DNA of 64,000 bases from Octopus sinensis (taxonomy: Eukaryota): the NCBI RefSeq assembly GCF_006345805.1, contig NC_043017.1:12152001-12216000 (forward strand). Reading direction: 5' to 3'. Each line of letters begins with the position of its first letter. Position 1 is the first letter of the stretch. The notes under the pieces are model-generated. The model made no database searches. It saw only the letters and a list, made by a program, of their open reading frames with translations, and was not told the DNA's origin. A program made the position numbers and the translations under genes. Shown piece by piece: positions 20,401-63,519 of this stretch.

Positions 20401-21262
20401 CCGTATATAGAAACACAGATTTATACATATATATATCTGTATTAAAGAGAAAAACAGCCGTGATTTACGTCTAAAGTGCAGTTCTTTTTTTATTTTTAAT
20501 ATTATTTCATCGTTCGTACACACAACTACCTTTTTGGATATGTCTACCACGCAGGGTGATTGTAAGTGCAAACTTTTTCTTTCTTTATTTTTCCTTTTAA
20601 TTTCTGGAATCATCCTTCGACCATTCGCGTTCTATTTTCGTTTAATTAATTAATTAGTTAATTGTCTTTGCTGATTAATGGGGTGGAGTTTCCCTCGTGT
20701 TTGTCCGGCATGTGTGTGTGTGCGAGAGAGATAGATAGATAGACAGATAGATAGATAGACAGAGAGAGATAGACAGATAGATAGATAGATAGATAGATAG
20801 ACAGAGAGATAGATAGACAGATAGATAGATAGAGAGAGAGATAGACAGAGAGAGAGAGAGAGGCTATTATGTGTTTTACTATCTTTCACTCTTTCTATCT
20901 CGCTCTTTATTTTTTCTCTCCATCACTCCTGTCTCCACACACACACCACACACACACCACACACAGACATATATATATATATATAAACACACATAAATAT
21001 GAAACAAAGTGGGGAAAAAAACAGGTACTCAAGGATCGAAGGTAGAGTAATTTACCTTATTAATAAAGCTGCAAAGACAGTTTTTGTGATGTCTGCAGCT
21101 TTATTAATAAAGTGTATATATATATATATATATATACCAATTAAGGACTGAACACGAAAAGTGGACAGTCAACATGCTAGATATAGACGTCAAATCGCCA
21201 TTCTCCACACAGATTATCCTGGTTTTAATTGACTAATATCAATTTCTACCCTTAATTAATTT

Positions 21263-21305
<43 letters not shown>

Positions 21306-21849
21306 TGTTTTTCTACCTGTCCGGTCTTCGACGAAGATTTAATTATTGTTGTTTATAAGAATCACAGCCAACAATTGACCAGCACCGGCTATGATCCTCC
21401 CCCGTCTTTTACAACAATCTGTATATATTTAAACGTCAGATCGCATAATACTTAAAACCATCGTGCCCCATTTTTCGTTTCTTTCTGTACTTTCTCTTTA
21501 AACGTAGACGGACGAAGTTATTTGAGGAAGAATTTGTTACTAATTCTAGCAGGCCAAAACGACTACGTCGAAGCTTGATGTGGTGGTGGAACTTCATGCT
21601 TGCTTTTTTCTTTTTGTTTTTCTTCAATAAAGTATTGTTTTGTGTTCTTTGTCAGTGTAACTCTGTGGAAGGTTAAATATGGATCAAACAAGGCTATATT
21701 TTGTGTCTTGTTGAATATATATATATATATACACTCACACACAGACACACACAGATACATACGTCTACATACTTCTAGAATTCATTTCCTCGTATATGCG
21801 TATTATGTAAGGAACCCATCTATGTACAGATGTACGTGTGTGTGTGTGT

Positions 21850-21924
<75 letters not shown>

Positions 21925-22387
21925 CTAGAGGTCTCGCAGAACTTCCCCACGTTCCTCAACTTATGACATTCCAAATTCACATATATACAAACATTATACA
22001 GGTGACAGTTACAATCTATGCGTGTGTATACACATCTGTGTGTATGTATGTATATATATATGTGTGTGTGTGTATAACTATGTGTGTATGTATGTATATA
22101 TATATGTGTGTGTGTGTGTATAACTATGTGTGTGTATAAATCTATGTGTGTATATATATATCTGTGTGTGTGTGTATATCTATATCTCTGTGTGGTGTGT
22201 ATGTATATATATAGTATATATTATATATATATATTATATATATATATATATGGCAATCTTTCGTCTCTAGTAGATCGCCTATATGGGAGACCCCTTTTTA
22301 AAGTAGAAGAAATAGCTAAGATTTTTGGCTGCTATTTCTAAACTTCGGTGTGTGGTGAAGCAAATCTTTGCTGAACCCTTTTATTAG

Positions 22388-22427
<40 letters not shown>

Positions 22428-22645
22428 TCATGTTCTGGGTACTTCTATCTGTATTACCAAATCCATACACGTATACAACACAGTTAAGCCATCTGCTTTG
22501 CTGACCGACAACTTCCAAAGTCACTGTCAACAACTTTCTTGTATAAGAACAAAAAATTTGTACTCGACAAAAGTATAGAGTTACCCATCAGCTTAATAAT
22601 GTTAAACTGTTTTTATTATAACTGAATATAATAACAAACATTAAT

Positions 22646-22915
22646 GTGTGTATTGGACACACATACATGTGTGCGCTGTGTATTGGACACATATACATGT
22701 GTGCGCTGTGTATTGGACACATATACATGTGTGCGCTGTGTATTGGACACATACATGTGTGCGCTGTGTATTGGACACACATACATGTGTGCGCTGTGTA
22801 TTGGACACACATACATGTGTGCGCTGTGTATTGGACACACATACATGTGTGCGCTGTGTATTGGACACATATACATGTGTGCGCTGTGTATTGGACACAC
22901 ATACATGTGTGCGCT
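22646..22915. repeat. 30-bp minisatellite, about 9 copies
   Basis: Unit GTGCGCTGTGTATTGGACACA(C/T)ATACATGT, near-identical, no spacers. Confidence 0.95.
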
Positions 22916-23062
22916 TGTATTATACATGCTTGACTCAGTTTCACATGACTTATTTTTGTGGCCGCGTATATCGTTAGTCGGTCATTTGGCTGCGGTCATG
23001 CTGGGGCACCGCCTGAAGGTGTTTAATTTTCAGTCGATCAAATAAACTCTAATACTTGTTTG

Positions 23063-23317
23063 GGTACGACTAGCAAACAGTGGTCCCGGTGCGCGCTAGC
23101 TAGTCGTGACTAGTCGATCCTTACTTTGTGTTTTTGTGTTATTTACTTTGTTTAAAAAATTAATTAATTTGTGTTTTTTGTGTTTTATTTAACAAAAATT
23201 ATTTACTTTGTGCAAAAAAAAAATTATTATTTATTTTGTGTTTTATTTACTTTGCTAGGTAGACGTGACTAGCTTGCGCGAGTGCGCGCACCGAGACCAC
23301 TGTTCGCTAGTAGTACC
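23063..23317. mobile_element. MITE with about 34-bp TIRs and 8-bp TSD (Merlin-like)
   Basis: GGTACGACTAGCAAACAGTGGTCCCGGTGCGCGC ... GCGCGCACCGAGACCACTGTTCGCTAGTAGTACC; CTTGTTTG duplicated at 23055-23062 and 23318-23325. Confidence 0.75.
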
Positions 23318-23559
23318 CTTGTTTGTTTGTTTTTTTTTAAACATCTGGCACTTTTTTAGGTATTTTCTTTTATCCGAACTGCTAAGTCACCGGAGTGTAA
23401 ACAAACGTATGCCGGTTGATAAACCGTAAGATAAACCCATAATTGTATGCGCAGCAGCGCATCTAATGATAGACAAAGCAACACTGTAGTATGTGATTTT
23501 AATATCAATATAAACAAATATTTTTTTCTTCCTCCTTCCCTTTCTCAGATTGACGAGGA

Positions 23560-23608
23560 ATGTGACTGATCGGTTTCGATTCTAATCGAACTCATCATCA
23601 TCAGACAC
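23560..23608 (-). ncRNA. Type I hammerhead-like fold, near-canonical
   Basis: Reverse complement reads GTGT-CTGATGA-T-GAT..TTC-gatta-GAA/ATC-GAAA-CCGATCAG-TC-ACAT; GUC triplet; stem III is one change away from palindromic ACTGATCAGT. Confidence 0.5.
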
Positions 23609-24904
23609 CAAGCACCACCACGTACACGCGAATGTAGTTCCTGGGATCCGGGACGGATTCCGATTAAATCCTTATCGAGTGGACACGTGTTCAGATGCGT
23701 TTCTAGCCATGACCATCCCGTCTGTTGTATGCACAGGGCTACGTTATCCCGCGTGTGCGATTCTTTTGTAAAGAGTTGGGTGTAGTTTGAGAGAGATTTG
23801 GTAACTGTTTCTAGCAGGTGGGGTGTCTGTTGGTTACACACACACACGGTCTCCCTCTCTCTCTCTATATATATATATTTATGTGTGTATATATATGTAT
23901 ATATATAGTGGTATAAATATCAACACAATTATTTCTCCTTCCTTTTCTTTTTTTTCCTTTCTTCCTTTCTCCAAACTCATAGACACCCACACGCACGCAC
24001 ACACACACACCTCCACAAAACAATAATAAAAAGAATTCTTCTCTAAACCCAAAACCATGACCACCCCTCATTAAACACACACACACTCTCTCTCACAATG
24101 ATAAAAAGGAAATATAATTTATGGTCTACTACCCCGCCACCACACACTCAATAACCTACGAAATGGTCAAAACTGAAATTCTTTTTCCCCAAGATCTTAG
24201 ACCCCCCCCCCTTGGAGTAAGCATCCTGTCCAGAAGACCAAAACAATTAAAAACATTTTTCTTCTTCCCTCTCCCTTCTCCTCTTTATCTTTAGCACGCA
24301 TTCCAAATACAAAAACACACACATGCTCTCTCTCCCTTTCTCCTCATCCATCACCCTCTTGTACTGTCTTACATTCCTCCCCACCACTACAAACTCAAAA
24401 ACACTATAAAATGGTCAAAACTTTTCCCACAGGAACTTAGTTCGATTTGAAAACCCCACAAGAATGGGAGAAAGCGCTAATACATGATCTAAGTTATATG
24501 ATGTATAAAAACATGTAATATACAAATAAATATCTGTAAATATAAAACCATCCGAATTTCTGAGTACCTCATTTCTTCTAATATAAAATACCTGTACATT
24601 ATCTCCAAACCTTCCATAATATATATATATATATATATATATTATTCAAAGAAATTCCAACTCTGTTTTTTTTTGTTTTATTTATATTCTTTATAATATT
24701 AATGTAGAATATAGGATATATAGTATAAAAAGTATATATAATAGTATAAGGAAATGAAGTATTGATTGTCTTATTGAATAGATATTTAATATCAAATATT
24801 AAGGGACTAGTATACTTCCTTGCATTAAAGCAGTCTTCAAGGTCCCAGGTTGTGACAGGAGCGTTTCAACTCAACTGTCTATATATAATTATATTTATAA
24901 CGGA

Positions 24905-24969
24905 CCATGCTGATGATGGCTGCAGTTTTCCTTGCGGAAAATAACAGCTGAAACTAATTTAGTACATGG
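24905..24969 (+). ncRNA. Type I hammerhead ribozyme, canonical core
   Basis: Stem I CCATG/CATGG; CTGATGA at 24910; stem II GGCTG/CAGCT enclosing a GTTTTCC-TTGC-GGAAAAT hairpin; GAAA at 24950; stem III ACTA-att-TAGT; GUA cleavage triplet ending at 24964. Confidence 0.8.
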
Positions 24970-26005
24970 GTAATTATTTTATTTCGTATATTTTTCACTT
25001 GTTTATTGCTATGGTTTTGTGTTGAGTTTGATCTGAGAACATAATCTTTTGTGGTGAATGGCGATTTGACGTCTATATCTAGCATGTTGACTGTCCACTT
25101 TTCGTGTTCAGTCCTTAATTGGTATATATATATATATAATTATAAAATTAATTAAGGGTAGAAATTGATATTTATCAATTAAGACCAGTGTCTAGCATAT
25201 TAAAAAGAATCCGAAGATTAAATATTATATATACCAATTAAGGACTGAACACGAAAAGTGGACAGTCAACATGCTAGATATAGACGTCAAATCGCCATTC
25301 TCCACAAAGAATAAGTTTGATCTGAGAACATAATCTTTTGTGGAGAATGGCGATTTGACGTCTATATCTAGCATGTTGACTGTCCACTTTTCGTGTTCAG
25401 TCCTTAATTGGTATATATATATATGTGTGTGTGTGTGTATATGTATGCATATATAAAAATATTTCGACATATAAGTGTATATGTGTCTGTGTGTTCATAT
25501 AAATGTGTATATTTTCACATCCGCACACAAACTGACGTATGACACACACGTACGTACCATTCATTATGTACTTTCTTTGCCTTACAAACTGACGTATGTG
25601 ATAAAACCTTCAACACCCCACCACAACAAAACCCAATGACTCAGAATGAATCGATTTGCTATATCATACTGTATTATTGTTGTTATTGTTACTGTAGTAG
25701 TTTCGGTGATAATCGATCAATTCATAAGACATTTTGTATTAATAAAGCCAGCTGATAAGGGGAAAATACGATAGCGTGGCGTTTAGATTGCTATGCAATT
25801 CTCAAAGATAATTTCAACTTTAGTAAAATTAGGGGTGACTGTGTGGTAAGAAGCTTGCTTCCCAACCACATGATTCCGGGTTCAGCCCCATTGCATGTCA
25901 CCTTGGGCAAGTGTCTTCTGCTATAGCCTCGGGCCGACCAAAGCCTTGTGAGTGTATTTGGTAGACGGAAACTGAGAGAAGCCCGTCGTGAATGTGTGTG
26001 TGTGT

Positions 26006-26047
<42 letters not shown>

Positions 26048-26937: not shown

Positions 26938-27133
26938 ATATATATATATAATATATATTATATATACTATATATTATATATATGTATATGTATGTATGTA
27001 TATGTATGTATGTATATGTATGTATGTTATATATGTATATATGTATGTATATATATGTATATGATGTATATATATTGTATGTATATAGTATGTATATATA
27101 TGTATGTATAATATGTATGTATGTATATATATG

Positions 27134-29869: not shown

Positions 29870-29924
<55 letters not shown>

Positions 29925-29992
29925 ACCTCGTGAGCACCGCCAGCAATTTTTTTTCCTCTGTCTTCCCTTCTCGGGATCTTTCCTTCTCCTTT

Positions 29993-30027
29993 GTTTCCGA
30001 CGAAGAGCTCCGCTCGAAACGTTAAAC
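29993..30027 (+). ncRNA. Minimal hammerhead ribozyme, CCGACGA core variant
   Basis: GTTT-CCGACGA-A-GAGC-tcc-GCTC-GAAA-CG-TT-AAAC; flanks homologous to the 38480-38615 copy. Confidence 0.6.
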
Positions 30028-30120
30028 CCTCCTTCTTTCCTGAGCGTCCAATAATACTTTATTTGTTCCACGTCCTCGCGTTGCTGTGTTTTTTTGTGTT
30101 TTCTTGTTTGGATTAACTAT

Positions 30121-35006: not shown

Positions 35007-35957
35007 TACAATGGGCTTCTTTCAGTTTCCGTCTACCAAATCCACTCACAAGGCTTTGGTCGGCCCGAGGCTATAGTAGAAGACACTTGCCCAAGGTGCT
35101 ATGCAGTGGGACTGAACCCTGAACCATGTGGTTGGTAAGCAAGCTACTTACCACACAGCAACTCTGCGCCTATTATGTAATCATCTTTATATGTATGTAT
35201 TTGTGTATATATATGTATACATTATCTGTGTTTGTATCTATATACATATGCACAGGAGTGGCTGTGTAGTAAGTAGCTTGCTTACCAACCACATGATTCC
35301 GGGTGTCTTCTACTTTAGCCTCGGGTCGACCAAAGCCTTGTGAGTGGATTTGGTAGACGGAAACTGAAAGAAGCCTGTCGTATATATGTATATGTGTTTG
35401 TCTATGTTTGTTCCCCCAACATCGCTTGACAACCGATGCTGGTGTGTTTACGTCACCGTAACTGAGCAGTTCGGCATAAGAAACCGATAGAATAAGTACT
35501 AGGCTTACAAAGAATTAGTCCTGGGGTCGATGTGCTTGACTAAAGGCAGTGGGAAGCTGCTGACCTCCCCTGATCGAAGGTTATAATGGATACAGATTTG
35601 TATGTCACATAGCTAGCTAGAGGTGATGGCCTTTTGGAGCTAATCAACGGCAGCATTCGTCCTATTTTCCTGGACTGTCATTTTAACTTGGTGATAACTA
35701 TTAATATATATATTATATATATAAGAAATATTGAATTTCTAAATCTCTCGTAGAGACATGTACGGTGGTGGGGGCAATAGAATGGTTGTATACTGTCAAT
35801 CTAACAAGAACGTGACACCCCTTCGTATATGTATATAAGGACACAGGGAAAAATGTGTCAAAGCCATCAGGAGGCGTTCGATGCTTCCTAGGGCTATACA
35901 GCGGTGGTGTACCCCCTACTGTCACGTTCTTGTTAGATTGACAGTATACAACCATTC

Positions 35958-35992
<35 letters not shown>

Positions 35993-36093
35993 ATTTCACA
36001 ATTGAGGGCAAATTAATTAATTATTAATCAATTTCACCAAGTGTTCGTATGCAAAGGGACCATTCAAGGCGAATTCAAATTATTACATTATAT

Positions 36094-36375
36094 AAAAGGG
36101 CTTAGTAAAATAAATTACTTTGCCGCATACTGAACTCATTAGAAATAGCAGCTAAAAAACTTTTTTAAAGCTATTTCTAATACTTAAAGAAAATCTCTCT
36201 CATATATAGTGTTTGCTTAATTCAACTCACAAACTTTTGTGAGTTGAATTAAGCAAACACTATATATGAGAGAGATTTTCTTTAAGTATTAGAAATAGCT
36301 TTAAAAAAGTTTTTTAGCTGCTATTTCTAATGAGTTCAGTATGCGGCAAAGTAATTTATTTTACTAAGCCCTTTT
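36094..36375. repeat. Perfect 140-bp-arm palindrome with 2-nt loop
   Basis: 36094-36233 is the reverse complement of 36236-36375. Confidence 0.9.
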
Positions 36376-36419: not shown

Positions 36420-36901
36420 AGCGTGTCTTTGTTTGACCCCCCCCCCTATCACCGCTTAATAATTTGATAACCCTTCAAGGTATTTATGTCCCTGTAACTT
36501 AGCAGTTTGGTAAAAGAGACAGGTAGAACAAGTAACTAGGCTTAAAAAATAAGTCTTGGAGTTGATTGCTTAACTTCAAGGCAATGCTGCAGCATGGCCG
36601 CAGTTGGGTGTCTGAATCAAGTAAAAGAATAAAAGAATATATATATATATATATATATATTTCTTTACTACCCACAAGGGGCTAAACACAGAGGGGACAA
36701 ACAAGGACGGGCAAACGGATTAAGTCGATTCCATCGACCCCAGTGCGTAACTGGTACTTAATTTATCGACCCCCAAAAGGATGAAAGGCAAAGTCGACCT
36801 CGGCGGAATTTGAACTCGGAACGTAAAGACAGACGAAATACGGCTACGCACTTCGCCCGGCGTGCTAATGTTTCTGCCAACTCGCCGCCTTTATATATAT
36901 A

Positions 36902-37269
36902 CTAGCAGTATCACCCGGCGTTGCTCGGGTTTGTAAGGGAAATAACTATAAAGCATTTTTAGAGAGTTATAGCCAAAAAATAGCAAAAAAATGGAAAAAA
37001 ATTATGGTAAATTTTTTTGAGTTAAAAAGGTCGAGTTGCGCCCCCTAGACAGTCTGTGGTTTGTGTTTCTGATTCTCGACCCCATGTCGAATTTATCGAT
37101 TTTTTTCAGAACTGGGCGAACTTTTCAAAATTTTCGCTGCGTTAGTTTTGAATTATGACATTGGGCTATGTGTGTATCAAGTTTCATCAGAATCGGTTGA
37201 AAGCCGTGGTCAGGGTGAGGGTACAACCTAACAGACACACAGACAAACTGCCGTTTATATAGAGAGAGA
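36902..37269 (-). mobile_element. Non-autonomous Helitron
   Basis: Minus strand starts 5'-TC, carries (GTCT)-type repeats near the 5' end, has subterminal hairpin CCCGAGCAACGCCGGG and a 3' CTAG; inserted between A and T with no TSD. Confidence 0.7.
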
Positions 37270-38550
37270 TATATATTCACACACATACATACATGTTTGT
37301 GTGAATGTATCTGTATATGTTTGTTTATCTACTTACATGTGTTGTACATATGTATCTATACAAAATATGGGCGTCTAAGATTAACAATAAATTGTAAGAG
37401 TTTCCTTTTATTTCCTGCATACCACCAGCAATGAAGATCTCTCCCATTCTCATGGTACCGCATTTCATAGTTGCCCAACGACAGTGTTCTCTCAAAGGTT
37501 GATGGACAGGTTTAAAAATAGATGGTAATTCATGCACAGAAAAATAACTAGTTTCATTTAGGATATTTAATAAAACAAGTTTTAAATAAAATATGCTGCT
37601 GGAAACATGCTTATGGTTGTGTGATGTACTAGGCTTACAAAGAATAAGCGTGAAAGCGTGGCTTAGTGGTTAGGGCATTCGGCTCATGATCGTAAGGTTC
37701 CGGATTCAGTCCCACTGCGTGGCATCATGAGTTTGATTCCCGGCGACGCGTTGTGTCCTTGAGCAAGACACTTTATTTCACGTTGCTCCAGTCCACTCAG
37801 CTGGCAAAAATGAGTTGTACTTGTATTTCAAAGGGTCAGCCTTGTCACTCTCTGTGTCACGCTGATTATCCCAGAGAACTACGTTAAAGGTACACGTGTC
37901 TGTGGAATGCTCAGCCATTTGCACGTTAATTTCACGAGCAAGCTGTTCCGTTGATCGTATCAGCTGGGACCCTCGTCGTCGTAACCGGCGGAGTCTTTTA
38001 AGTCTTTTTAACAAAGAATAAGCCCTGGGGGGTTGATTTGCTCGATTAAAGGTGGTGCTCCAGCATGGCTGCAGTCAAATGTCTGAAACAAATAAAGAAT
38101 TTCTTTTTCTGTTGCTAATGTATGTTTCTTTAACAAGTTTACTGGCTAATTGCGACACCAGTGCCTGTTGTGGCTTTTGATCTATTGGCAAAAAAAAATG
38201 ACCACCCCCAAATATATATATTCCTTTTTTTTTTTTTTACTTGTTTCAGTCACATGACTGCACACCCATACTGGAGCACCGCTTGCAGGGTTTTAGTCGA
38301 ACAGATTGATCCTTGGGCTTATTTTTCATAGCCTAGTCCTTATTCTATTGATCTCTTTTATCAAACCACTAAGATACAGGGATGTAAACACACCAACACC
38401 AGTTGTCAAGCAGGGGGTGGGGTGGGGGCAAACACAGACACAGACACACACACACAGATATAGATACATACATACATACGTGACCGCGTGTGTACCGTTG
38501 GTGATTTTCTTTCCTCTGTCTTCCCTTCTCTGGATATTTCCTTTTCCTAT

Positions 38551-38585
38551 GTTTCTGACGAAGAGCTCCGCTCGAAACGTAAAAC
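38551..38585 (+). ncRNA. Minimal Penelope-type type I hammerhead ribozyme
   Basis: GTTT-CTGACGA-A-GAGC-tcc-GCTC-GAAA-CG-TA-AAAC: intact core, 4-bp stems I and II, palindromic ACGT stem III. Confidence 0.75.
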
Positions 38586-39299
38586 CCTCCTTCTTCCCTT
38601 CCTTCCTGAGCGTCCTAGTGAGTAACTAGTACTTAATTTATCGACCCCGAAAGGATGAAAGGCAAAGTCGACCTCGGCGGAATTTGAACTCAGAACATAA
38701 TGGTAGACGAAATACCACCAAGCATTTCGCGCGGCATGCTAACGTTTCTGCCAGCTCGCCCAGAAACTTCTTACCACACAACTGTACCTGTCCACTTTTC
38801 TATGCTAGCAGAGTTCAGACAGATTTCCTATGGCTGGATGCCCTTCTTGTTACCAGCCCTTATCTATTATCAAGCAAGTTAATATTCCCCCATGGCCAGG
38901 TATCTTTTCATAGAAAATCGGAAAGAAATAAAACTGTGTAACAGTGACACCTGTTTACAACTATCTCATGATGGCAAAACATGGACACACACAACAAGTT
39001 TTTTTCAGCCTCCACCTGCCAAATGTACTCACAAGGATACAGTCTACCTAGGGCTATAGTAGAAGATACTTGCCCAATGTGTCACACAGTAAATTGAACC
39101 TGAGACCATGTGGTTAGGAAGCATAGTTCTTTATAGTGTATGTGTGTGTGTTATGCTGGAATAGGTTAGATGGTTTGACTGGAGCTAGTAAGCTGGAGAA
39201 CTGCACCAGGTCCAGTTTGTTTTGGCTTGGTCTTTATGACTCGATGCCCTTCCTAACACCAACCATTCTATAGACTGTGCTGAGTGCTTTTTTGCAAAG

Positions 39300-40020: not shown

Positions 40021-40842
40021 CTAGCTTCATATCATCATCACCATCGTTCAACATCCATTTTCCATGCTGACATGGGTTGGACAGTTTGACTGGGGTCAGG
40101 GAAGCCAGAAGACTGCACCAGGCTCCAGTCTGATCTGGCAGTGTTTCTACAGCTGGATGCCCTTCCTAACGCCAACCACTCCGAGAGTGTAGTGGGTGCT
40201 TTTTACATGCCACCGGCACAGGGGCTAGAGGAGGTTGGCAACAACCACAATCAGTTGGTGCTTTAGTTTGATATGAGAAACAGTAGGTCTAAAGCTAGAA
40301 GTTGAACCCTGCATCTATCACTAGGCAATCAAACCCCTGTACCTCTCCTTTGCTAGGCAACACAGATATAAATTAGTATAGATTACAATGCACTATGCTT
40401 TTATGCTTGTAATTTCGTATCAAGAAAGGTATTTTAAGTACCCTCTCTGCTACTTAACTGCACTACATATTTATCTGTATGTGTGTCTGTATTCATACAT
40501 GCATAAATAATTAAATAAATAAATAAATAAATCATTAGATAATTAACTATGTTTATATTACAGATCATTTATCAGTTATGAAGCACTATCAGCAAGATAG
40601 GTTATATCTACAAATGTCATATGTCCACTTGTTATTTAATCATAGGTCACTCCTGATAGGGTAGACCTCTGATCAAAGGCATTTCATCTTTTGCCTAACA
40701 ACGGTGCACATTATGTAGTAAGCAGGGTTCTTTCTTTTTTCTTTTAGTACTGGTCTCAGTATTGTCAATTAAACCCCACCTCATCTTGAAATTGTACATA
40801 AAGGAGAACCAGTTATTCTCATCATTATTAAAAACAAATAAT

Positions 40843-41134
40843 GGGAGTTGTGGCGTGCTCCTGTAATCTAGCTACTCAGAGGCTTGGTTGGTTGGCCGGT
40901 TTGAGGATGGGAGTCTTGGTAGTCGGTCTTCTATGGCGATCGGGTGTCCGCGCTAAGCTCGGCATCAATATGGTGCTGGAGAGGGAGCTCATCAGGACCA
41001 GGTTGTCTAAGGAGGGTCGCTTCGGCCCAGGGCTAAACGCAGCAGGCAAAAGGCCCCGTGTCGAGCAGTAGTGGGATCGCGCCTGTGAATAGTTGTCGGT
41101 TAGCAGCCTGTTCGATATAACTGAACACCAATCT
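40843..41134 (+). ncRNA. 7SL/SRP RNA copy, near full length, probably a retrocopy
   Basis: Blocks matching metazoan 7SL: GTGGCGTGCTCCTGTAATCTAGCTACTC, GATCGGGTGTCCGCGCTAAGCTCGGCATCAATATGGTG, ACCAGGTTGTCTAAGGAGGG, CAGTAGTGGGATCGCGCCTGTGAATAG. Helix-8 loop deviates from GNRA and no T4 terminator follows. Confidence 0.9.
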
Positions 41135-42429
41135 AATTTAAATGGCGGTGCCCCAGCATGGCCACAGCTCATGAGCTGAAACTAGAATCAATCAATCAAT
41201 CAATGAAAATGGTTATTAAAAGCACCATCCGATCGTGGCCGTTTGCCAGTATCGTCTGGCACCTGTGCTGGTGGCACGTAAAAAGCACCCACTACACTCA
41301 TGGAGTGGTTGGCGTTAGGAAGGGCATCCAGCCGTAGAAACATTGCCAGATCAGACTGGGCCTGGTGCAGCCTTCTGGCTTCACAGACCCCAGTTGAACC
41401 ATCCAACCCATGCCAGCATGGAAAGCGGACGTTAAACAATGATGATGATGATGATGATGAGTTATTACCTTCTTTCTGTTGAAATACACTGCTGGTGTTT
41501 CAGATAATTTTGAAAATAATGAAAAGTTTAATAAAATAACTTTGGTATTACTTAAACAAAGGGAACATAAATTAAAAGGAAATTCTGTTGAAATCTTCTG
41601 CCTTTGTTTCAGTTAATTTTTAGAATAATAAAGAATTTAGTTAATGTCATTATCAAACTGTTGTTCAACACAAATCAACTTGAAATTTTGATGGAAGGTT
41701 TCAGTTTAGATCACTTTAACTCTTTAGTTACCATATTTCTTATTTCTTTACTGCCCACAAGGGGCTACACACAGAGGGGACAAACAAGGACAGACTAACA
41801 GATTAAGTTGATTATATCGACTCCAGTGTGTAACTGGTACTTATTTAATCGACCCCGAAAGGATGAAAGGCAAAATTGATCTCGGCGGAATTTGAACTCA
41901 GAACGTAACGGCAGACGAAATACCTATTTCTTTGCTAACCCACAAGGGGCTACACACAGAGGGGACAAACAAGGACAGACAAACAGATTAAGTCAATTAC
42001 ATTGACTCCAGTGCGTAACTGGTACTTAATTTATCGACCTTGAAGGATGAAAGGCTAAGTCGACCTCGGGGGAATTTGAACTCAAAACATAGCAGCAGAC
42101 GAAATACAGCTAAGCATTTCGCCCGGCGTGCTAATGTTTCTGCCAGCTCACCGCCTTGTTACCATATCTCTCTTGAAATATACTGTTTTTTGTTTCAGTT
42201 AATTTTTATAGTAATGAAGAATTTAGTAAAATAACTGTCATTATTAACCCATTAGCATTAAAACTGGCTAGGTCCAACCCAGATATTCTGTATGTCTTAT
42301 GGTCAAACCAGCCAGATCCAGCCTACAATGTCCTTCTAAAAATAAGCAACCCCCCCCCCCATCCTTAGTAGTGTACTTCTCACCATCTCCCCCTTAGGTC
42401 TACCATCCAAATATTATGTCTGTTACTCA

Positions 42430-45765: not shown

Positions 45766-47593
45766 AACAAACACACATGCTCTTACACATACATAAGTGT
45801 GTGTATGACTCAGATGGAGTTATTCTGTTCATTCAGTTGAAATACTTCCATGGAGAATGTATATAATGACTTGTTCAGTCGTTTTAGCTATGCATGTATT
45901 CTTTACACAACAGGAATAATGTGAATATAATTAAATAAACTGCACAAAGAAAGTATGAAACATTTACCACAAATAAATATTTACACCACATTTAGATGCT
46001 TTGATGACCAATTAACAAGTCGGTCGTTTTATTTATATAGTAAATCAGAATAGACACAGGTGTGGCTGTGTGGAAGGAAACTTACTTCCCATCCACATGG
46101 TCCAGAGTTCAATCCCACTGCATGGTTCCTTGGGCAAGTACCCTCCTCTGTAGCTCAGGGCCGACAAAAGCCTTGTGGGTGGATTTGGTAGATAGAAACT
46201 GAAAGAAGCTTGCTGTTGTTGTTGTTGTTGTGTGTGTGTAGTATTGACAGAAATGATTTGTGTGTGTGTGAATGTTTATACTTCATTAATGCCTTGAGAC
46301 ATGTTTCCATCCACAAATCACTTTTGTTATATCATCATCATCATCATCATCGTTTAACGTCCGCTTTCCATGCTAGCATGGGTTGGACGGTTCAACTGGG
46401 GTCTGGCGAGCCCGAAGGCTGCACCAGGCCAGTCAGATCTGGCAGTGTTTCTACAGCTGGATGCCCTTCCTAACGCCAACCACTCCGAGAGTGTAGTGGG
46501 TGATTTTATGTGCCACCGACACAGGTGCCAGACGAGGCTGGCAGACGGCCACGCTCGGATGGTGTTTTTTATGTGCCACCGACACAGGTGCCAGACGAGG
46601 CTGGCGAACGGCCACGATCGGATGGTGTTTAACTATATTTATATGGAGATATAACTGTTGGTAGCTGACAACAAGAAGCATATGAGCTTTTACGAATGCA
46701 TTCAGAGGCATTTGCCTAAATGAATTAAAGATATATATATCATCATTTAGCATCTGCTTTCCATGCAGGCATGGGTTAGATGGTTCGACTGGAACTGGTA
46801 AGCTGGAGAGCTGCACCAGGTTCCAATCTGATTTGACATGTCCTAACACCAACCACAAGTTGATAATTCTTTGACATCCTTCTGCTACTGCCTGCAGGGT
46901 TAAATTCTGTTCTAGGATTGTAAGGATCTGTGCTTGTATTTTGCATCTTTGCTTGCCATCAAACCTTGCACAAAGGCATGGCATTTAAACAAGTTATTTT
47001 CGCAATTTATATTTCTGTATGTTATATTTTAATAATTACTGGTATCTTTATATATTAATATATTTTATATGTAAAGCATAATATGTTATACATGTATGTA
47101 TATTCTTGTAATTGTCATTTAAGTAAATAAATGAATAAATGGAAAAGTTTTTGACATTTCGAGTCTACACTCTTCAACAGAAAAGTATGAAAGGGAAAAA
47201 GATGGAGAGAGAAAAAAATGTGTAGGGGGTAACGGTTTAACATAATGAGATATATATATATATATATATATCACCATGACCAACCAGGCTATCAGATGTT
47301 GCTACACATCGCTGGTCACAATGCACTTTGCATTGATTTAGCCTTCAAATGATGCCACCCCACTGGCTAAGCAAGCAGCCAACAGAAGAAAGAGTGAGAG
47401 AAAGTTGTGGCGAAAGAGTACAGCAGGGATCGCCACCACCCCCTGCCAGAGCCTTGTGGAGCTTTAGGTGCTTTCGCTCAATAAACACTCACAACGCCTG
47501 GTCTGGGGATCGAAACCGTGAAACCACTGGGCCATTGTGCCTACACACACACACAAACGCAATCAGTCATTGGTTTACATGCAGGCGAAAAAA

Positions 47594-53758: not shown

Positions 53759-54029
53759 TCCCCTCAACAACCTGGACCCATTTCCTTCGTCCCCCAAAGA
53801 CATTTTACGTTTTGTTATCGATGAACCTCATATAAAGGGCTTTGTGGCTGTTTTGTTATTTGCCCTCCTCCTCTCTCTCTTTACCCCCTTCTGTTGGTAC
53901 CCCTACATCACTACATTGCCTTGTCTGGTTATTTAAAACTGTGAATGCTATTCTGTGTGACATGGTGACTATAATGTGTAACATAAATAGAATGATCTGT
54001 GACAGAACACATCAGACATTGAACAATTA

Positions 54030-55025
54030 TGTTACAAGTCATTACAATCTGTTACACTATGTTACATCATATACAAGTCACAATGATCTATTACAAACTT
54101 TGTCATGTTACAAGTCACTATGATTTGCTACAAACAGTCTCCTGTTACAAGTCACTGTGGTCTGTTAAAAATGACTGATTTATAATACTGTTGGAAGTCA
54201 CTATGATGTTACACAATGGCATGTTACAGCTCTATGATCTGATACACACCACATTGTTTCAAGTCACTATGATTTGCTACAAACAGTCTCCTGTTACAAG
54301 TCACTGTGGTCTGTTAAAAATGACTGATTTATAATACTGTTGGAAGTCACTATGATGTTACACAATGGCATGTTACAGCTCTATGATCTGATACACACCA
54401 CATTGTTTCAAGTCACTATGATTTGCTACAAACAGTCTCCTGTTACAAGTCACTGTGGTCTGTTAAAAATAACTGATTTATAATACTGTTGGAAGTCACT
54501 ATGATGTTACACAATGGCATGTTACAGCTCTATGATCTGATACACACCACATTGTTTCAAGTCACTATGATTTGCTACAAACAGTCTCCTGTTACAAGTC
54601 ACTGTGGTCTGTTAAAAATGACTGATTTATAATACTGTTGGAAGTCACTATGATGTTACACAATGGCATGTTACAGCTCTATGATCTGATACACACCATA
54701 TAGTTTCAAGTTGCAATGGATCTGTTAAACTGTTACAAGTTGCTACAATGTGTTACATATGCTACAGCTCACCATAGTCTGCTACAAACTGTATTATGTT
54801 ACAAGTCACTAGTCACCATGATCAGTTACAGACCATGTTACATTGCAAGTCACTATGATTTTTTGCAATATATTCTGTTACAAGTCAGTGATCTGTGACA
54901 CAGTGGTATATTACAAGTCACTATGACCTGTTAACATACCATGTTACAAATCGTTGTGACCTAATACATACCATGTTATGTTACAAGCTATGGTGGTCTG
55001 GTACATACCATGTTACAAGTCACAG
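54030..55025. repeat. Degenerate ~30-bp TGTTACAAGTCAC satellite containing four 149-bp higher-order repeats
   Basis: HOR units start at 54111, 54260, 54409 and 54558. Confidence 0.9.
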
Positions 55026-56290: not shown

Positions 56291-57913
56291 CAACTAGGCT
56301 CTGCCATCTAAATCCTCAACTCCTCTTTTCTCTTCAGAATATCAGCCTTCTCGATTTCCATGTGACATGCCACCATTTGTAACACATTTGTATGGCGGCG
56401 AGCTAGCAGAAAGGTTAGCACGCCGGGCGAAATGTGTAGCCGTATTTCGTCTGTCGTTACGTTCTGAGTTCAAATTCCGCCGAGGTCGACTTTGCCTTTC
56501 ATCCTTTCGGGGTCGATAAATAAAGTACCAGTTTCCCACTGGGGTTGATGTAATCGACTTAATTCCTTTGTCTGTCATTGTTTGTCCCCTCTATGTTTAG
56601 CCCCATGTGGGCAGTAAAGAAATACATTTGTAACACAACTGATGGTAGTTACATAAATGCATCCCTTTTTTAACATGTTGCAGTAAAAACCTGTAACATG
56701 CAGTTACTAGATGTCACTAAGTGAGGACCTGGTTATGCATGTTACATAGCACACATCACACACCAGATGCTGTTACTTCCATTCTGGTCATGTGAACAGG
56801 TCATACATTGATTTTTTTTTTTTTTTCAAATATTTTTATAATGAAATCACATGACCCAGTCACATGTAACCCTCTACATAGTTTTTATCCTGATTTCTCC
56901 TGTTTATTTATTTATTTATTTTTTTTCTGCTGCCACTAACTTGTAACTAATCAAGAATAATGTTAATTTAATCAATTTGACTGGTTTCAGAGATCCTCGA
57001 TAGGCCCATGAATGAACACAGTTCCTTTCCTCTGGACCAAACCAATAAATAGATCAGTCTCAGGCAAACCTATTAGCCCCCTGAGACATGCTGAATGACC
57101 ACACCTATAAAAAATGTCCTTGGCTCATCATCAGGCAGGCCTGACATGGGTGACATAAGCCATGCCTCATGTCACCCATTTCTTGAAAAAAAGGGGCCCA
57201 TGCCTGAAGCAAATGAACACACTGGATGGGTGGATGGAGGGAGATGAGTTAAAATGTGGGAGGCTGAAGAAATGGTGAAGGTAAAGTTTGTGCTGTTGAT
57301 TATTTTCTCTTGGGAATATTCCAAACAATAAGTGAAGTGGTTTCCTCTGATACGAGTATACATACTTCGGCACAATGAAAATTTACTGATGGCCTCTTAA
57401 TGCCTTGTTGAAAGCATTGTTTTCTGTAATACATACACACACTCACACACACACATAGACTAATGTTTGTTTTTATGTTCAGTTATAATAAACACAATTT
57501 TACATTAAATCTGGTGGGTTGCTCTATATTTTTGTAGAGTGTGGCACATAAAAAGCACCATCCGTTCGTGGCCGTTTGCCAGCTCTGTCTGGCACCTGTG
57601 CGGGTGGCACGTAAAAAGCACCCACTACGCTCACGGAGTGGTTGGCGTTAGGAAGGGCATCCAGCTGTAGAAACTCTGCCAGATCTGACTGGGCCTGATG
57701 AATAGCCTTCTGGCTTCACAGACCCCAGTTGAACTGTCCAACCCATGCTAGCATGGAAAACGGACGCTAAACGATGATGATGATGATGAAAGCGACTTTG
57801 AAGTTTCGGCCAGCTAAGCGATCATCGGACAATGGCTTAGCTGGCTGAAACTTTGAAATCACTGTCAACAACATTCTTCTTTAAGAATAACACATATACG
57901 TGTGTGTGTGTGT

Positions 57914-57950
<37 letters not shown>

Positions 57951-58054
57951 AAGAAGAGGTAGATAGTCCTTCATTGATGAGTTCTGTTCTTAAGCTTGTA
58001 TGTCAGAACAGCAAAATACATATATATCTGTGCAAATATACTGGTATGGCTTTT

Positions 58055-58102
<48 letters not shown>

Positions 58103-60582
58103 CAAAAATCACTCTAATATACTGCATAAGAGGCAAATAGAAGATGAAGAAAAGATGAAGTTAGACAAGCAAAATGTGGGTATAAAAAAAAAGCTTTGAA
58201 ATATAAAACAAAATAACAATGGAAGAATGTGTACAATGAAAATAAATACACTAATGAAAGAAGCGAAAGAATCTAATATTTTCAGCTTTGCACCTTTATC
58301 AAAGAGAAGGAAAAGCAATAAGAGAGGTAAAAGAAATGAAATGACACTAAATTTACAACAACTGTTTACATGGCAGCCTAGTATAAGATTTATATATATA
58401 TATACACACACACACATTCATGTATATATATAATCAGGCAAGTGGGGTAAGAGAATCCTTTGGTCCGTCAGAGGATGTAGCTGCTGTACGACTGGTGCCA
58501 CATAAATGCCTGATATATGGGAGGGCACCCAGATCATGTCAAAAGGGGAAGGTTTTTCCAGCCCATCAAGGAGGGTAGTGACTCTCAAAATAAGATCTGA
58601 CTCAGGTTGTGTCAACCTACACCTTCCCATATCGGAATGGAAATCAGATTTGAACATGATTACTTATTCAAGCACAAAGCCAATTATAAGGCAAGTGAGA
58701 GTGAAGTTCATTGCAATGGTACCAGTATATTACTGGTACTTATATTATTGCCACTAACTTCTCTCTTTCGCTTCCTCTAAAGAGATGAAAGGTTAACTTC
58801 TTGGGGCTGTTTGAACCCAGGACAGTATAGAAAGTTTAGAATAAACTTATTCAATTAACTATAAAGTATTCTATATGCTGCACTGTCTACTTACTGCTCT
58901 GCTAATTCCTAGCCTTACTAATAACATCTTTCTACTATAGATTCAAGGCTTGAAATCTGGGGAAGGTGTGGCGTTTGTTGGTTACATCAACATCAGTGCA
59001 TAACTGGTATCTATTTTATTGACCCTGAAAGGATAAAAGATATCTCTCATTTACTCTTTTACTTGTTTCAGTCATTTGCCTGTGGCCATGCCGGAGCACC
59101 GCCTTTTAGTCATGCAAACTGACCCCAGGACTTATTCTTTGTAAGCCTAGTACTTATTCTATCGGTTTCTGATGCCGAACCGCTCAATTACGGGGACGTA
59201 AACACACAAGCATCGGTTGTCAAGCGATGTTGGGGAGACAAACACAGATACACAAATGTATACACACACACACATATGTATACTACGGGCTTCTTTCAGT
59301 TTCTGTCTACTAAATCCACTCACAAGGCTTTGGTCAGCCTGAGGCTATAGTAGAAGACACTTGTCCAAGGTGCCACAGAACCTGGAAGCATGTGGTTCAT
59401 AAGCAAGCTACTTACCACACAGCCACTCCTACGCCTATATAGTCAACATCAGAAACTAAACTCAAAATCTAAGCCACAAGATATGCTACTGAGCATTTTG
59501 TCTGGCATGTTTATAATTCTGCTAACTCGCTGCCTTTCTAATAAAAATAATGGATTCTAATTCAAGCATAAGGTTAGCACCTTTGACAAGAGAGGGCTAA
59601 TTGGTACCACCAACCTAAATACTTGTACTTTATTTTATTGATTAAACCCCACATCCAAAAAAAAAAAAATTTGAAAGGCAAAGTTGACTGTGGCAGGATT
59701 TGATCTCAGAATGTAAAGAACCGGAGCAAATATACAAGGTATTTATTTCCCAATCCTTTAATGATTCTGCCAGCCCATCACCATGATACTTCTCTTGTTC
59801 CCTCCACCCAGACTCTCTGGTTCCTCTTTATTTCAGATGTATAATGTACAGGGTTCACTACACAAGCAACCAACCAGGACATTCTGTAATGTGGTTGGTA
59901 AACTTGAAGAGGCTGCATATGGTCAAAATGAGAAGTTATGTCCTGTTGTTGAGGATAAAATAACTTCTGCATTGGTGCTAAAATAAAATGTATGGTTTTC
60001 ATTCTTATCCTCACCTGTGGTTATGCATGTTGGGTAATGATCAAAACAGTGTGATCCTGAATACAAGCAGTTGAAATGGGGTTCCTCTGGGGGAATGTTA
60101 TTTGACAAATTTCAGGCCTTGTGCCTTTTGTAGGAAGGATTTTTAGTATTATTTGGGCAGCAAGCTGGCAGAATCGTTAGCAGACCAAGCAAAAAGCTTA
60201 ATGGCATTTCATGTCTTCGTGTTCTGAGTTCAAATTCCACCAAGGTTGACTTTACCATTCATCCTTTCTGGGTTGATAAAATAAGTACCAGTTGAACACT
60301 GGGGTCAATGTAGTTGACTTATACCCTCCTCTGAATTTGCTGACCTTGTGCCAAAATTTGAAATAATTATTATTAGGAGAGCAGCAGGCTGGCAGAATCA
60401 CTTAGAGCATCAGAAAAATGTCCATTACATTCTGATTTCAAATCCTGCTGATGTCGGCTTTGCTTTTCATCCTTTAGGGGTTGCTAAAATAAAGTACCAG
60501 GGTCGATGTAATCAACTTCTCCCTGCCACTAAAAAATTGCCAGCCTTCTACCAAAATTAGAAAGAATTATTGTTTTCAAGTT

Positions 60583-60700
60583 GCTTACAGGCATATCATG
60601 TTGAATGCACCAGTTCTCGTCTGATCACTATAGTTAAGCAACATTGAGCTTCGTTAGTACTTAGATGGGTGACCGCTTGGGAAACCTAGGTGCTTTAAAT
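60583..60700 (+). pseudogene. 5S rRNA pseudogene
   Basis: GCTTACAGGCATATCATGTTGAATGCACCAGTTCTCGTCTGATCAC...AGTTAAGCAA...GTTAGTACTTAGATGGGTGACCGCTTGGGAA matches metazoan 5S including A and C boxes; many CpG-to-TpG/CpA changes; isolated copy. Confidence 0.9.
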
Positions 60701-61890
60701 ATCTCACTTTAAGGTAGCAAGCCTGCAGAATCTTTAACACACTGGACAAAATGCTTAGCAACATTTCGTTCATCTTACATTTTGAGTTCAAATGCCATCG
60801 GGGTTGACTTTGCCTTTTATCATTTCGGGGTCGATAAAATAAGTATTAGTTGGATACCGGGATCAATGTGATTGACTAGCCAATGTGATTTCAGGCCTTG
60901 CTCCTATAGAAGAAAGAATTATTATTATTATTATGAAGGTGGCAAGCTGGTAGATTCATTTGCATATTGGACTAAATGTTCTACGGTATTTCTTCTGAGT
61001 TGTTACAGACTGAGTTCACATCCCACCAAAGTCAGCTTTGCCTTTCATCCTTTTGGGGTTCAGTAAAATAAAATACCGAGTACCAATGAAGTACTGGGTG
61101 GGGGGAATGTTGATGTAATTGACTACACCCCACTAAAAAAAATTTCAGGCCTTGTGTTTATAGTAGAAAGAATTATTATTAATGATATTATTATTATTAT
61201 TAAAATTATTATTATTATATTGATATTTATTTCAATCAAGAAGCACTCAGCGGTTCAATAAATAACAAAACAAAAGTACAAAAACAAAGCATAATAATTT
61301 GAAAACAAAAACTGTCTTACCAATATTCTTGTGAAATAATTTATATTTGAAATGTAAAAAAAAAAAAATTAAAAGAAAAAAAAATATATATATATGTATA
61401 TGAAGCCAAAAAAAATTTTAAAAAAAAATATCACCCAGGGCTTATTTAAAAAGTTATTTTTCTGTAAACCATATTGGTATTCTTCCTGGAATAAACCATG
61501 AAGACTGCTGCTGCTGCTGCTAATTAATAAAATGGTTTTGTTAAAGAATTTTGGAGTGGAACTTATTTCTTTGATACTAACCAGTTTTTGTAACTTTTAT
61601 TCTTTTATTTGTTTCAGTTGTTTGATTGCAGCCATGCTGGAGCACCACCTTTAGTCAAACAAATCGACCTTAGGACTTATCCTTTTGCTATTCTTTTGCT
61701 AAACCGCTAAGTTATGGGGACATAAACACACCAACATCGGTTGTCAAGTGATGGTGGGGAAGACAAAGACACATACATATACATATATATATAACGGGAA
61801 GGTTTACGAAAATAAACAAAAGACGAAGGCAGGTGGAGTACAAAGAAACAAATGTATTAGTATGGTGCTCAGGAATAGAAATAGAACAAG

Positions 61891-61928
61891 TCTTTTACGT
61901 TTCGAGCCTACGCTCTTCGACAGAAAGA
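61891..61928 (-). ncRNA. Minimal hammerhead ribozyme, CTGTCGA core variant
   Basis: Reverse complement reads TCTTT-CTGTCGA-A-GAGC-gtag-GCTC-GAAA-CG-TA-AAAGA; stem I changes on both strands relative to the other two copies while staying paired. Confidence 0.6.
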
Positions 61929-63519
61929 TACACAGAAACAAATGTGTGTAGGAGCTAACGATCTATCATATATATACACACGATGGGCTTCTTTCAGTTT
62001 CCGTGTACCATATCTACTCACAAGGCTTTGATTGGCTTGAGGCTACAGTACAAGACACTTGCCCAAGGTATCATGCAGTGGGACTGAACCCAAAACCATG
62101 TTCATTTTTAATGGAAAATATAGGTGTATTGATCAACCACCCATGAGATATTTCTTTGCAGCAATAAAGTTTTATTTTTTAAGTTACATGCCCATGCTGG
62201 TTCAGGCTTTCTACTCAGATCTTGATTGCATGGTTTCTGCTCTTTGCAATGTAATAGCTGAGACTTATATCAAAAGATTTCATAGGTTCTTTTCATATCT
62301 GGACTCTCTCTTTTTTACTCTTTTACTTGTTTCAGTTATTTGACTGCGGCCATGCTGGAGCACCGCCTTTAGTAGAGCAAATCGACCCAGGGACTTATTC
62401 TTTGTAAGCCCAGTACTTATTCTATCGGTCTCTTTTGCCGAACCGCTAAGTGAGGGGGACGTAAACACACCAGCATCGGTTGTCAAGTAATGCCAGGGAG
62501 ACAGACACACAAACACACACATATATATATACATATATACGACAGGCTTCTTTCAGTTTCCGTCTACCAAATCCACTCACAAGGCATTGGTCGGCCTGGG
62601 GCTATAGCAGAAGACACTTGCCCAAGATGCCACGCAGTGAGACTGAACCTGGAATCATGTGGTTGGTTAGCAAGCTACTTACCACACAGCCACTCCTGCG
62701 CCTGTATAAGTCCCCAGATAATTGTTCACTAATTTGCTTACTGCCCCTAATTCACTGTTTGTCTGTGTGTGTGTGTGACTTTGTATTTATTCGTTCCTCC
62801 CACTATCACACCACGAGACAACTGGTGTTGGTTTGTTTATCTCCCCCATAACTTAGCAGTTCAGCAAAAGCAGCCAACAGAATAGGTATCAGATTAAAAA
62901 AAAACAAAAAAAAGTACTAGTACTCCAGCATGGCCTTAGTCAAGTGACTGAAACCCCCAAAAAATGTATCAATTTGATTGACTAAAACCCTTCACTCCTC
63001 CATAACTTAGCAATTCAGCAAAAGAGGCCAACAGAATAGGTACCAGATTTATAAAAAAAAACAAACAAAAAGTACTAGTACTCCAGCATGGCCTCAGTCA
63101 AGTGACTGAAACAAAACAAAAAAAAGTATCAATTTGTTTGACTAAAACCCTTCAAAGTGGTGCCCCAGCATGGCCATGTAGTCCAATGACTGGAGTGGAA
63201 CAAGATAAATGATAAAGTCATAAGACACTGTCTTTCTCTCTCTCCCTCCCCTCTCTCTTCTCCTGTCTATAAAACATGACAGGAAAAAATCGACCAATCA
63301 ATCAACGTTTATATGGGCCATTATTAAGCAGAGATTAAACATTTACTGCTTTGAGTGTTTAGGCCATAAATGTTGTCTGTTTATGACTTAGTCATCAGCA
63401 CAACTACCTCTATTCCTGTATATGTCTTTATTATCATTTTTAGCTTCGTTTTTCTTTTCTGAAACACTTTTCAAAATCTTAATGACGGTCCTCTTTCTTT
63501 ATAGTAGTGGTCAATGACC

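What the first reader, a model, noticed from the sequence alone, without database searches (positions are those of the whole stretch)
21134..61965. Hammerhead-bearing, foldback-forming non-coding modules that home to (TA)n/(CA)n microsatellites (Penelope/retrozyme-like system)
Seen: five hammerhead folds (23560-, 24905+, 29993+, 38551+, 61891-) and several perfect or near-perfect inverted-repeat modules (about 21056-21112, 25231-25414, 35777-35960, 36094-36375). Apart from the 23560 fold, they are short, non-coding and embedded in or beside TA/CA tracts, without obvious TSDs. Established: Penelope-like elements carry minimal type I hammerheads in their pLTRs, favour simple AT repeats and leave inverted terminal repeats. 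Inference: this genome has several non-autonomous ribozyme-containing families at high density that use microsatellites as landing sites and may be processed to small self-cleaved or circular RNAs.
Basis: partly seen in the sequence, partly recalled or inferred. Interest (0 to 1): 0.75.

Follow-up and report, generated by a model that had tools for sequence, protein, structure and literature searches.

The report
Penelope-type retrozymes inserted as paired arms
The ribozyme motifs and fold-backs in this window are short end-pieces of several jumping-gene families: two are the terminal repeats of protein-coding Penelope retrotransposons, and at least three are protein-free repeats carrying a hammerhead RNA motif that sit in TA microsatellites as two back-to-back arms ending at two fixed sites, which likely records how Penelope enzymes copy them.

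Summary
Four of the five hammerhead folds belong to multi-copy families; 23560 is a weak singleton. The 29993/38551 and 61891 modules are terminal repeats (pLTRs) of two autonomous Penelope-like elements (PLEs); the 61891 family has U, not A, at core position 6 (38 of 39). The 24905 fold belongs to a young 506-nt tandem retrozyme (family B, arrays to about 17 units), which also makes 21134-21262 and 25231-25414. The 35777 and 36094 fold-backs are ends of two more hammerhead tandem families; 21056 has the same anatomy, no ribozyme found. Fold-backs are head-to-head insertions: 3' ends stop at two fixed TA-motif sites (E1, E2) bracketing a 55-104-nt tail, one of each per two-armed insertion (8 of 8 in an end-unbiased set). 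Three copies outside microsatellites show 11-12-bp target duplications. This matches published PLE biology (inverted arm, tail, two internal RT starts), so the class is known; the added value is insertion-signature evidence that retrozymes use PLE machinery. Cleavage, circles and the partner of the retrozymes are untested or not found. This scan noted the same pattern earlier on other DNA of this genome.

The parts
20990..21112 (.). Family F two-armed head-to-head insertion: tail-bearing (E2) arm leftwards, E1 arm rightwards; no hammerhead found for F
21137..21262 (.). Family B two-armed insertion with non-overlapping arms: E1 arm on - (21137-21217), E2 arm on + (21219-21262)
22280..22341 (+). 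Diverged relative of the family E 3' end (75% over 68 nt) inside a TA-flanked module
23559..23609 (-). Singleton hammerhead-like fold (family C): textbook core, weak stems, no relatives found; old copy or chance
24887..25122 (+). Family B (506-nt retrozyme) single arm from -77 to E1, with intact type I hammerhead 24905-24969; predicted cut after 24964
25145..25411 (.). Family B two-armed insertion: E2 arm on - (25145-25308), E1 arm on + (25314-25411); the overlap makes the 83-nt inverted repeat
29922..30117 (+). Family A solo pLTR of PLE P4, minimal hammerhead with U4C and GUU site (likely decayed), 3' end in (TA)n
35724..35957 (.). Family D (363-nt hammerhead tandem unit) two-armed insertion, E2 left, E1 right; ribozyme lost by 5' truncation
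35993..36374 (.). Family E (544-nt hammerhead tandem unit) two-armed insertion; 104-nt tail at left plus 140-nt perfect palindrome; ribozyme lost by 5' truncation
38480..38615 (+). Family A solo pLTR of P4 with intact minimal hammerhead (core 38555, predicted cut after 38581); 3' part replaced by other sequence
47149..47184 (-).
61794..61968 (-). Family A2 solo pLTR of autonomous PLE P3; minimal hammerhead with family-wide A6U core; TA on both sides

Best explanation
The modules are 5'-truncated 3' ends of two autonomous Penelope-like retrotransposons and of at least three protein-free hammerhead tandem repeats (retrozymes), and all were likely inserted by the same kind of Penelope RT/GIY-YIG enzyme. 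Shown: family membership, tandem units of 363-544 nt with one type I hammerhead each, two fixed 3' ends (E1, E2) 55-104 nt apart, head-to-head arms with one E1 and one E2 end, TA targets, 11-12-bp target duplications in three copies, and the same hammerhead-E1-tail-E2 layout in autonomous PLEs of this genome. Inferred: the enzyme (probably a dimer) makes staggered nicks in both strands of a TA-rich site; one 3'-OH primes internally at E2 and the other at E1, helped by the UA motifs that follow both sites in the RNA; both cDNAs run upstream through the ribozyme site on a circular or uncleaved multimeric RNA, stop at random, and their ends are joined. Short cDNAs give ribozyme-less fold-backs; long ones give tandem arrays that can be transcribed again.
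For: B: 36 of 36 free 3' ends at E1 or E2 and 15 of 15 two-armed blocks E1+E2 (query fixed only the E1 arm; one pair is a duplicate); with an internal query that contains no end, 8 of 8 two-armed insertions among 11 loci are E1+E2. D 18 of 20, E 9 of 10, F 11 of 14 (queries biased). Non-overlapping arms at 21137-21262 need two primings. 0 of 52 B arm 5' ends lie within 3 nt of the predicted cut. TSD 11-12 bp in L110, L112, L115. A2 lies downstream of 29 of 30 P3 endonuclease ORFs and at both ends of 4 of 8 long P3 regions; A lies downstream of P4 in 6 of 17 and directly upstream in 3. P1, P2, P5 show hammerhead (U3-A8 variant in P2, P5), E1, 32-42-nt tail, E2. In vitro a PLE protein cuts and extends both strands and starts at two internal sites that bracket the tail (PMC11167929, parts 1-2 of 4).
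Against: No ORF-bearing partner sharing sequence with B, D, E or F was found (best: 79% over 39 nt between B and the P2 pLTR, E 0.002; no PLE ORF in 11 B regions). Tails are longer than the published 30-40 nt, and D has only 3 nt (TAT) of TA likeness after its ends. Arm-versus-arm identity within insertions is only slightly higher than between insertions, so one-RNA versus two-RNA is open. 11 of 17 P4 regions show no downstream A within the 2.1-2.6 kb fetched. Ribozyme activity was not tested; 8 of 9 predicted Xenopus retrozymes did not cleave in vitro (bioRxiv 10.64898/2026.07.22.740005, part 3).
Confidence: 0.85

Rival explanations
1. One priming plus fold-back: the enzyme primes once at E2, the nascent cDNA folds back on itself (or an antisense RNA self-primes), is copied to E1 and joins the other target end by TA microhomology.
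For: Perfect palindromes with tiny loops (36094-36375) and short palindromes at inversion points; self-priming was proposed for rotifer PLEs (PMC3846280, passages).
Against: The E1 arm often holds sequence absent from the E2 arm (21137-21262; L039; the C5 array has about 17 units on the E1 side and under 2 on the E2 side), which a copy of the first cDNA cannot supply.
Confidence: 0.1
2. The tandem units are satellite DNA grown locally from a stranded pLTR by unequal crossing-over, and the fold-backs are MITE-like or replication-made palindromes.
For: This route to retrozyme arrays is proposed in bioRxiv 10.64898/2026.07.22.740005 (part 3); alternating unit variants inside the C5 array fit some local homogenisation or a multimeric template.
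Against: Arrays are dispersed on many contigs at 98-100% identity, and each complete array is bounded by an E1 and an E2 end with an internal inversion at a variable point; MITEs have fixed equal termini.
Confidence: 0.04
3. B, D, E and F are not free retrozymes but pLTRs or internal deletions of autonomous PLEs not yet sampled, with ribozymes that play no part in mobility.
For: A and A2 turned out to be exactly that; hammerhead mutants do not affect PLE insertion in vitro (PMC11167929); the A2 family spread with A6U; searches score only the top 40 candidates.
Against: B, D and E form ORF-free head-to-tail multimers with stable circular folds (z -4.6, -7.1, -3.5 against 40 shuffles), and B keeps an intact core and stems in the great majority of units scanned. 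This rival shares the insertion mechanism and differs only on origin and ribozyme use.
Confidence: 0.25

Closest known systems
Metazoan non-LTR retrozymes (Cervera and de la Pena 2020, PMC7229834, parts 2 and 4 of 6 plus passages; Li, Clavereau, Pollet 2026, bioRxiv 10.64898/2026.07.22.740005, parts 1-3 of 5)
   Same: Low-GC tandem units with one type I hammerhead each, no ORF, monomers to multimers, stable predicted circular fold, PLEs in the same genome.
   Different: The parts read describe no head-to-head arms, two fixed ends or TA targeting; units here (363-544 nt) are at the long end; RNA circles and cleavage are not shown here; no sequence link to a PLE was found for B, D, E.
pLTRs with minimal hammerheads of Neptune/Nematis-type PLEs (Cervera and de la Pena 2014, PMC4209133, parts 1-2 of 4; Craig et al. 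2021, PMC8557442, passages)
   Same: Minimal type I fold with unpaired base 5' of stem II and palindromic stem III; solo copies far outnumber full elements; U3-A8 variant; RT then CX4CX2C linker then GIY-YIG; inverted 5'-truncated copy; tail at one end; (TA)n bias hiding TSDs.
   Different: Family-wide U at core position 6 in P3/A2 (natural A6C is in print, PMC3088659 and PMC7151607 passages; A6U was not found). A and A2 showed one 3' end and no tail in the copies seen.
PAc (Poseidon of Anolis) in vitro mechanism (Frangieh et al. 2024, PMC11167929, parts 1-2 of 4)
   Same: Two internal RT start sites bracket the tail; both target strands cut and extended; AT-rich target; uncleaved RNA is a template.
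   Different: PAc starts at a site not homologous to the target and shows no strand preference between the two starts; here both starts are followed by TA motifs like the target, pair strictly one-and-one, and are 55-104 nt apart in the non-coding families.

Membership tests
Non-LTR retrozyme (B, D, E) | Head-to-tail units of a few hundred nt, each with a type I hammerhead | tested here: met
   B 506 nt, E 544 nt, D 363 nt
Non-LTR retrozyme (B, D, E) | No ORF, no LTR/PBS/PPT, GC under 50% | tested here: met
   GC 0.33, 0.33, 0.45; no PLE ORF in 11 B regions; PBS/PPT not searched separately
Non-LTR retrozyme (B, D, E) | Expressed as linear and circular unit-length RNA | tested here: inconclusive
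   Only contigs of runs guessed to be RNA; an end-to-start joint is also given by tandem DNA
Non-LTR retrozyme (B, D, E) | Self-cleavage | not testable with these tools
   needs in vitro transcription
Non-LTR retrozyme (F) | Hammerhead in the unit | tested here: inconclusive
   None in the F pieces of 20 loci, all short and 5'-truncated; the hammerhead in L131 belongs to an adjacent B-like element
EN+ Penelope-like element pLTR (A, A2) | Repeat flanks an ORF with RT and C-terminal GIY-YIG | tested here: met
   A2; P3 RVT_1 E 2e-8, GIY-YIG by alignment to P2 and not by Pfam. A:
EN+ Penelope-like element pLTR (A, A2) | Minimal hammerhead with stems kept by covariation | tested here: met
   7 sequences, 98.6% of cells paired, 2 pairs changed on both sides; small related set
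EN+ Penelope-like element pLTR (A2) | Canonical CUGANGA core | tested here: not met
   U6 in 38 of 39 cores, A6 in 0
Neptune/Nematis clades (P1-P4) | CX2-5CxxC linker before GIY-YIG | tested here: met
   CX4CX2C read in P1, P2, P3 translations
Neptune/Nematis clades (P1-P4) | Placement in an RT phylogeny | not tested
   no reference proteins fetched
PLE insertion signature (B, D, E, F) | Inverted 5'-truncated arm, tail at one end, TA bias, TSD | tested here: met
PLE insertion signature (B, D, E, F) | Tail of 30-40 bp | tested here: not met
   92, 55, 104, 71 nt; autonomous P1, P2, P5 have 36, 32, 42
MITE | Fixed terminal inverted repeats with equal ends | tested here: not met
   unequal ends and variable inversion points
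Hammerhead family (23560 fold) | Recurs in related copies | tested here: not met
   the 33 other matches cover only the upstream repeat, not the fold; exact pattern once in the genome

The most novel reading that the evidence does not exclude
A Penelope enzyme dimer grips one folded retrozyme RNA so that one subunit always starts at E1 and the other at E2, each annealing a UA motif to a nicked (TA)n strand, and rolls around an RNA circle to write arrays of up to about 17 units in a single event; in parallel, a very abundant autonomous family (P3) runs on a natural U6 hammerhead that is either metal- or protein-switched or shows that cleavage is dispensable.
Probability: 0.4. Interest if true: 0.65.

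Novelty: new variant of a known kind. Interest (0 to 1): 0.42.

Why it matters
Which enzyme moves animal retrozymes, and how Penelope elements make their inverted arms and tails, are open questions in the papers read. A young, 98-100% identical, protein-free family that carries the whole PLE insertion signature supplies a short RNA template and clear predictions (start sites, pairing rule, rolling copies) for an in vitro assay, with young PLE ORFs of up to 784 aa in the same genome as candidate enzymes. The U6 family is a natural test of whether the pLTR ribozyme must cut. The class itself is known, and this window holds only truncated copies.

Tried and rejected
Descriptor without the extra base 5' of stem II: 0 hits. 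Rfam: no hammerhead among the 150 of 176 matches shown. RNA: no RNA holder listed; all runs are contigs with kind guessed, so ends, strand and level cannot be read; in run X1 a neighbouring high-copy repeat (about 24310-24600) has no cover while the B unit has, but missing cover proves nothing. Family C: DNA search and exact pattern found no relative. The L131 hammerhead was first taken for F and rejected. The A2 module beside P1 ORFs in L018 and L180 was considered as the P1 pLTR and rejected: P1 has its own 3' end and A2 follows P3. Within- versus between-insertion arm identity: inconclusive (means 5.0/5.9, 5.6/7.9, 0.4/1.3, 0.6/0.8). No PLE ORF in the window itself (tblastn empty). No partner ORF for B, D, E, F. 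A family search by a recalled Pfam accession failed because the library lacks it. Look-ups of earlier findings by sequence returned nothing. 3350+ (one-mismatch hit) was left as likely chance and not followed. MITE and plain satellite readings rejected (see rivals). Supplements of the papers were not read; Repbase-type supplements of PMC8557442 and the preprint may already list these families.
Full report
Setting. The window is G000:C21:12152001-12216000 of a 2.72-Gb animal genome. Its repeats look like octopus SINEs (recalled, not tested). It holds no PLE ORF.

Observation. A type I hammerhead descriptor that allows one unpaired base before stem II recovers all five folds (cores at 23604-, 24910+, 29997+, 38555+, 61923-) plus 47180- and 3350+; without that base it finds none. 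That base is typical of PLE minimal hammerheads (PMC4209133, parts 1-2 of 4). Strict cores: 3 observed, mean 0.06 in 150 shuffles; one mismatch: 7 against 1.13; no shuffle reached either count. 24910 forms stems I and II in its MFE fold (z -2.1); 23604 does not fold as a hammerhead (z 0.19). The inverted repeats are present as described.

Families A and A2 are pLTRs of autonomous PLEs. 38551 has 2437 first-look candidates, 40 scored at 95-100%; of the 30 loci kept, 27 were printed, most as ~220-nt solo modules ending in (TA)n. An RT fragment joined to one copy (L024) led to PLE P4: A lies 1.1-2.0 kb downstream of the ORF in 6 of 17 regions and directly upstream in 3; 11 show none downstream in the span fetched. 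The 61891 module (A2) follows the GIY-YIG ORF of PLE P3 in 29 of 30 loci and flanks both sides of 4 of 8 long regions. P3 has RVT_1 (E 2e-8); Pfam GIY-YIG was not hit, but the region aligns with P2, which has it. The CX4CX2C linker marks P1-P3 as Neptune/Nematis type by the motif in PMC8557442 (passages); no tree was made. The A2 core has U at position 6 in 38 of 39 distinct copies and A in none, so this is a family trait and not decay of the window copy. Natural A6C cores are known and are slow in Mg (PMC3088659, PMC7151607, passages); one search for A6U found no report. Seven A-type motifs keep 98.6% of stem cells paired with 2 pairs changed on both sides (small and related set).

Families B, D, E are retrozymes by anatomy. 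24880-25125 has 1177 candidates; the 40 scored give 46 matches at 98-100%. The unit is 506 nt with one hammerhead; arrays reach about 17 units. The same family makes 21137-21262 and 25145-25411. The 36094 module belongs to a 544-nt unit and the 35777 module to a 363-nt unit, each with its own type I hammerhead upstream of the part present in the window. Circular folds are more stable than 40 shuffles (z -4.6, -3.5, -7.1). Family F (21056; 668 candidates) has the same ends but no hammerhead was seen in its short pieces. The 23560 fold has no relative; with 0.06 chance hits per window it may be chance or an old copy.

Insertion anatomy. Counting from the predicted cut, free 3' ends fall at two sites: B +158/+250, E +187/+291, D +176/+231; F has a 71-nt tail. 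In the unit both sites are followed by TAT or TATATA-like sequence, and in insertions by (TA)n. In B, 36 of 36 free ends are E1 or E2 and 15 of 15 two-armed blocks pair E1 with E2 (22 blocks, overlapping loci removed, one duplicate pair, E1 arm fixed by the query). A query from the unit interior gave 11 new loci: 8 two-armed, all E1+E2 (chance 1 in 256 if ends were chosen independently and equally), and 3 one-armed by BLAST, one of which shows a tiny inverted E1 arm. D 18 of 20, E 9 of 10 (the miss is a block-splitting artefact in L106), F 11 of 14, all with queries that favour this structure. Inversion points vary; 0 of 52 B arm 5' ends lie within 3 nt of the ribozyme cut, so cDNA runs through it and the template is likely circular or uncleaved. 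Three D insertions outside microsatellites show 11-12-bp duplications: L115 scored by script, L110 and L112 read by eye from the same output. Autonomous P1, P2 and P5 have the same order, hammerhead (U3-A8 variant in P2 and P5, degenerate in P1), E1, tail of 32-42 nt, E2.

Mechanism. Published: PLE insertions often carry an inverted 5'-truncated copy and a 30-40-bp tail at one end, prefer (TA)n and have 8-10-bp TSDs (PMC8557442, PMC3846280, passages); purified PAc cuts and extends both strands, starts at two internal sites that bracket the tail and does not need ribozyme cleavage (PMC11167929, parts 1-2 of 4). Inferred here: staggered nicks, one priming at E1 and one at E2, random stops, end joining. 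Non-overlapping arms (21137-21262) and E1 arms longer than E2 arms exclude fold-back copying as the only route. Whether one or two RNA molecules are used is open.

RNA. No listed run is on record as RNA. In X1 (guessed RNA) one contig covers most of the B unit and joins its end to its start; X6 and X10 show the same joint. Tandem DNA or tandem transcripts give the same joint, so this is no evidence for circles.

Against. No partner ORF was found for B, D, E, F; searches score only the top 40 or 150 candidates. Activity is untested, and 8 of 9 Xenopus candidates did not cleave (bioRxiv 10.64898/2026.07.22.740005, parts 1-3 of 5).

Novelty. Retrozymes, their likely PLE origin, minimal pLTR hammerheads, tails and TA bias are in print (PMC7229834, parts 2 and 4 of 6 and passages; other papers above). 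Searches (listings only, apart from the papers named) showed no report of cephalopod retrozymes or of retrozymes with the two-arm signature; the library lacks most subscription papers and no supplements were read. Earlier unreviewed notes of this scan describe the two-end rule and a fixed core change on other DNA of this genome; I had reached the two-end reading before that call and tested it here. Verdict: new variant of a known kind, interest 0.42.

Noticed in passing
window 40842-41136 +: Full-length metazoan SRP (7SL) RNA match, 217.9 bits, above the gathering score.
   Followed up: no
window 60583-60701 +: 5S rRNA match, 83 bits, with several broken pairs; likely a pseudogene.
   Followed up: no
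window 23062-23319: GC-richer element with long imperfect terminal inverted repeats around an AT-rich core; MITE-like and unlike the PLE fold-backs.
   Followed up: no
window 53957-54850: Young 149-bp tandem array, central copies 99% identical; no hammerhead hit.
   Followed up: no
window 24310-24600: Very high-copy repeat ending in a TA tract, next to the B arm (depth in run X15); family not identified.
   Followed up: no
window 36900-37270: Element inserted in TA that also follows an A copy in L013; resembles non-autonomous Helitron-type repeats (recalled).
   Followed up: no
window 2550-2975 +: Cys-rich open frame with a sub-threshold Pfam Toxin_TOLIP hit (E 0.0018), probably an exon of a Ly6/three-finger-type host gene.
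   Followed up: no
L186, L187 (G000:C3): Young PLE P2 with 784-aa RT+GIY-YIG frame, an overlapping 437-aa upstream frame, and a U3-A8 hammerhead in its pLTR; good candidate enzyme.
   Followed up: partly
L024:1310-1500, L251: P4 RT fragment fused directly to the A pLTR: internally deleted non-autonomous derivative.
   Followed up: partly
L109:500, L131:1294, L189:1380, L190:7654: Further type I hammerhead families with longer stem III, two of them B-like with covarying stem I.
   Followed up: no
L067:3-539, 1215-1637: A B insertion lies within a few kb of exons of a ligand-gated ion channel gene (PF02931).
   Followed up: no
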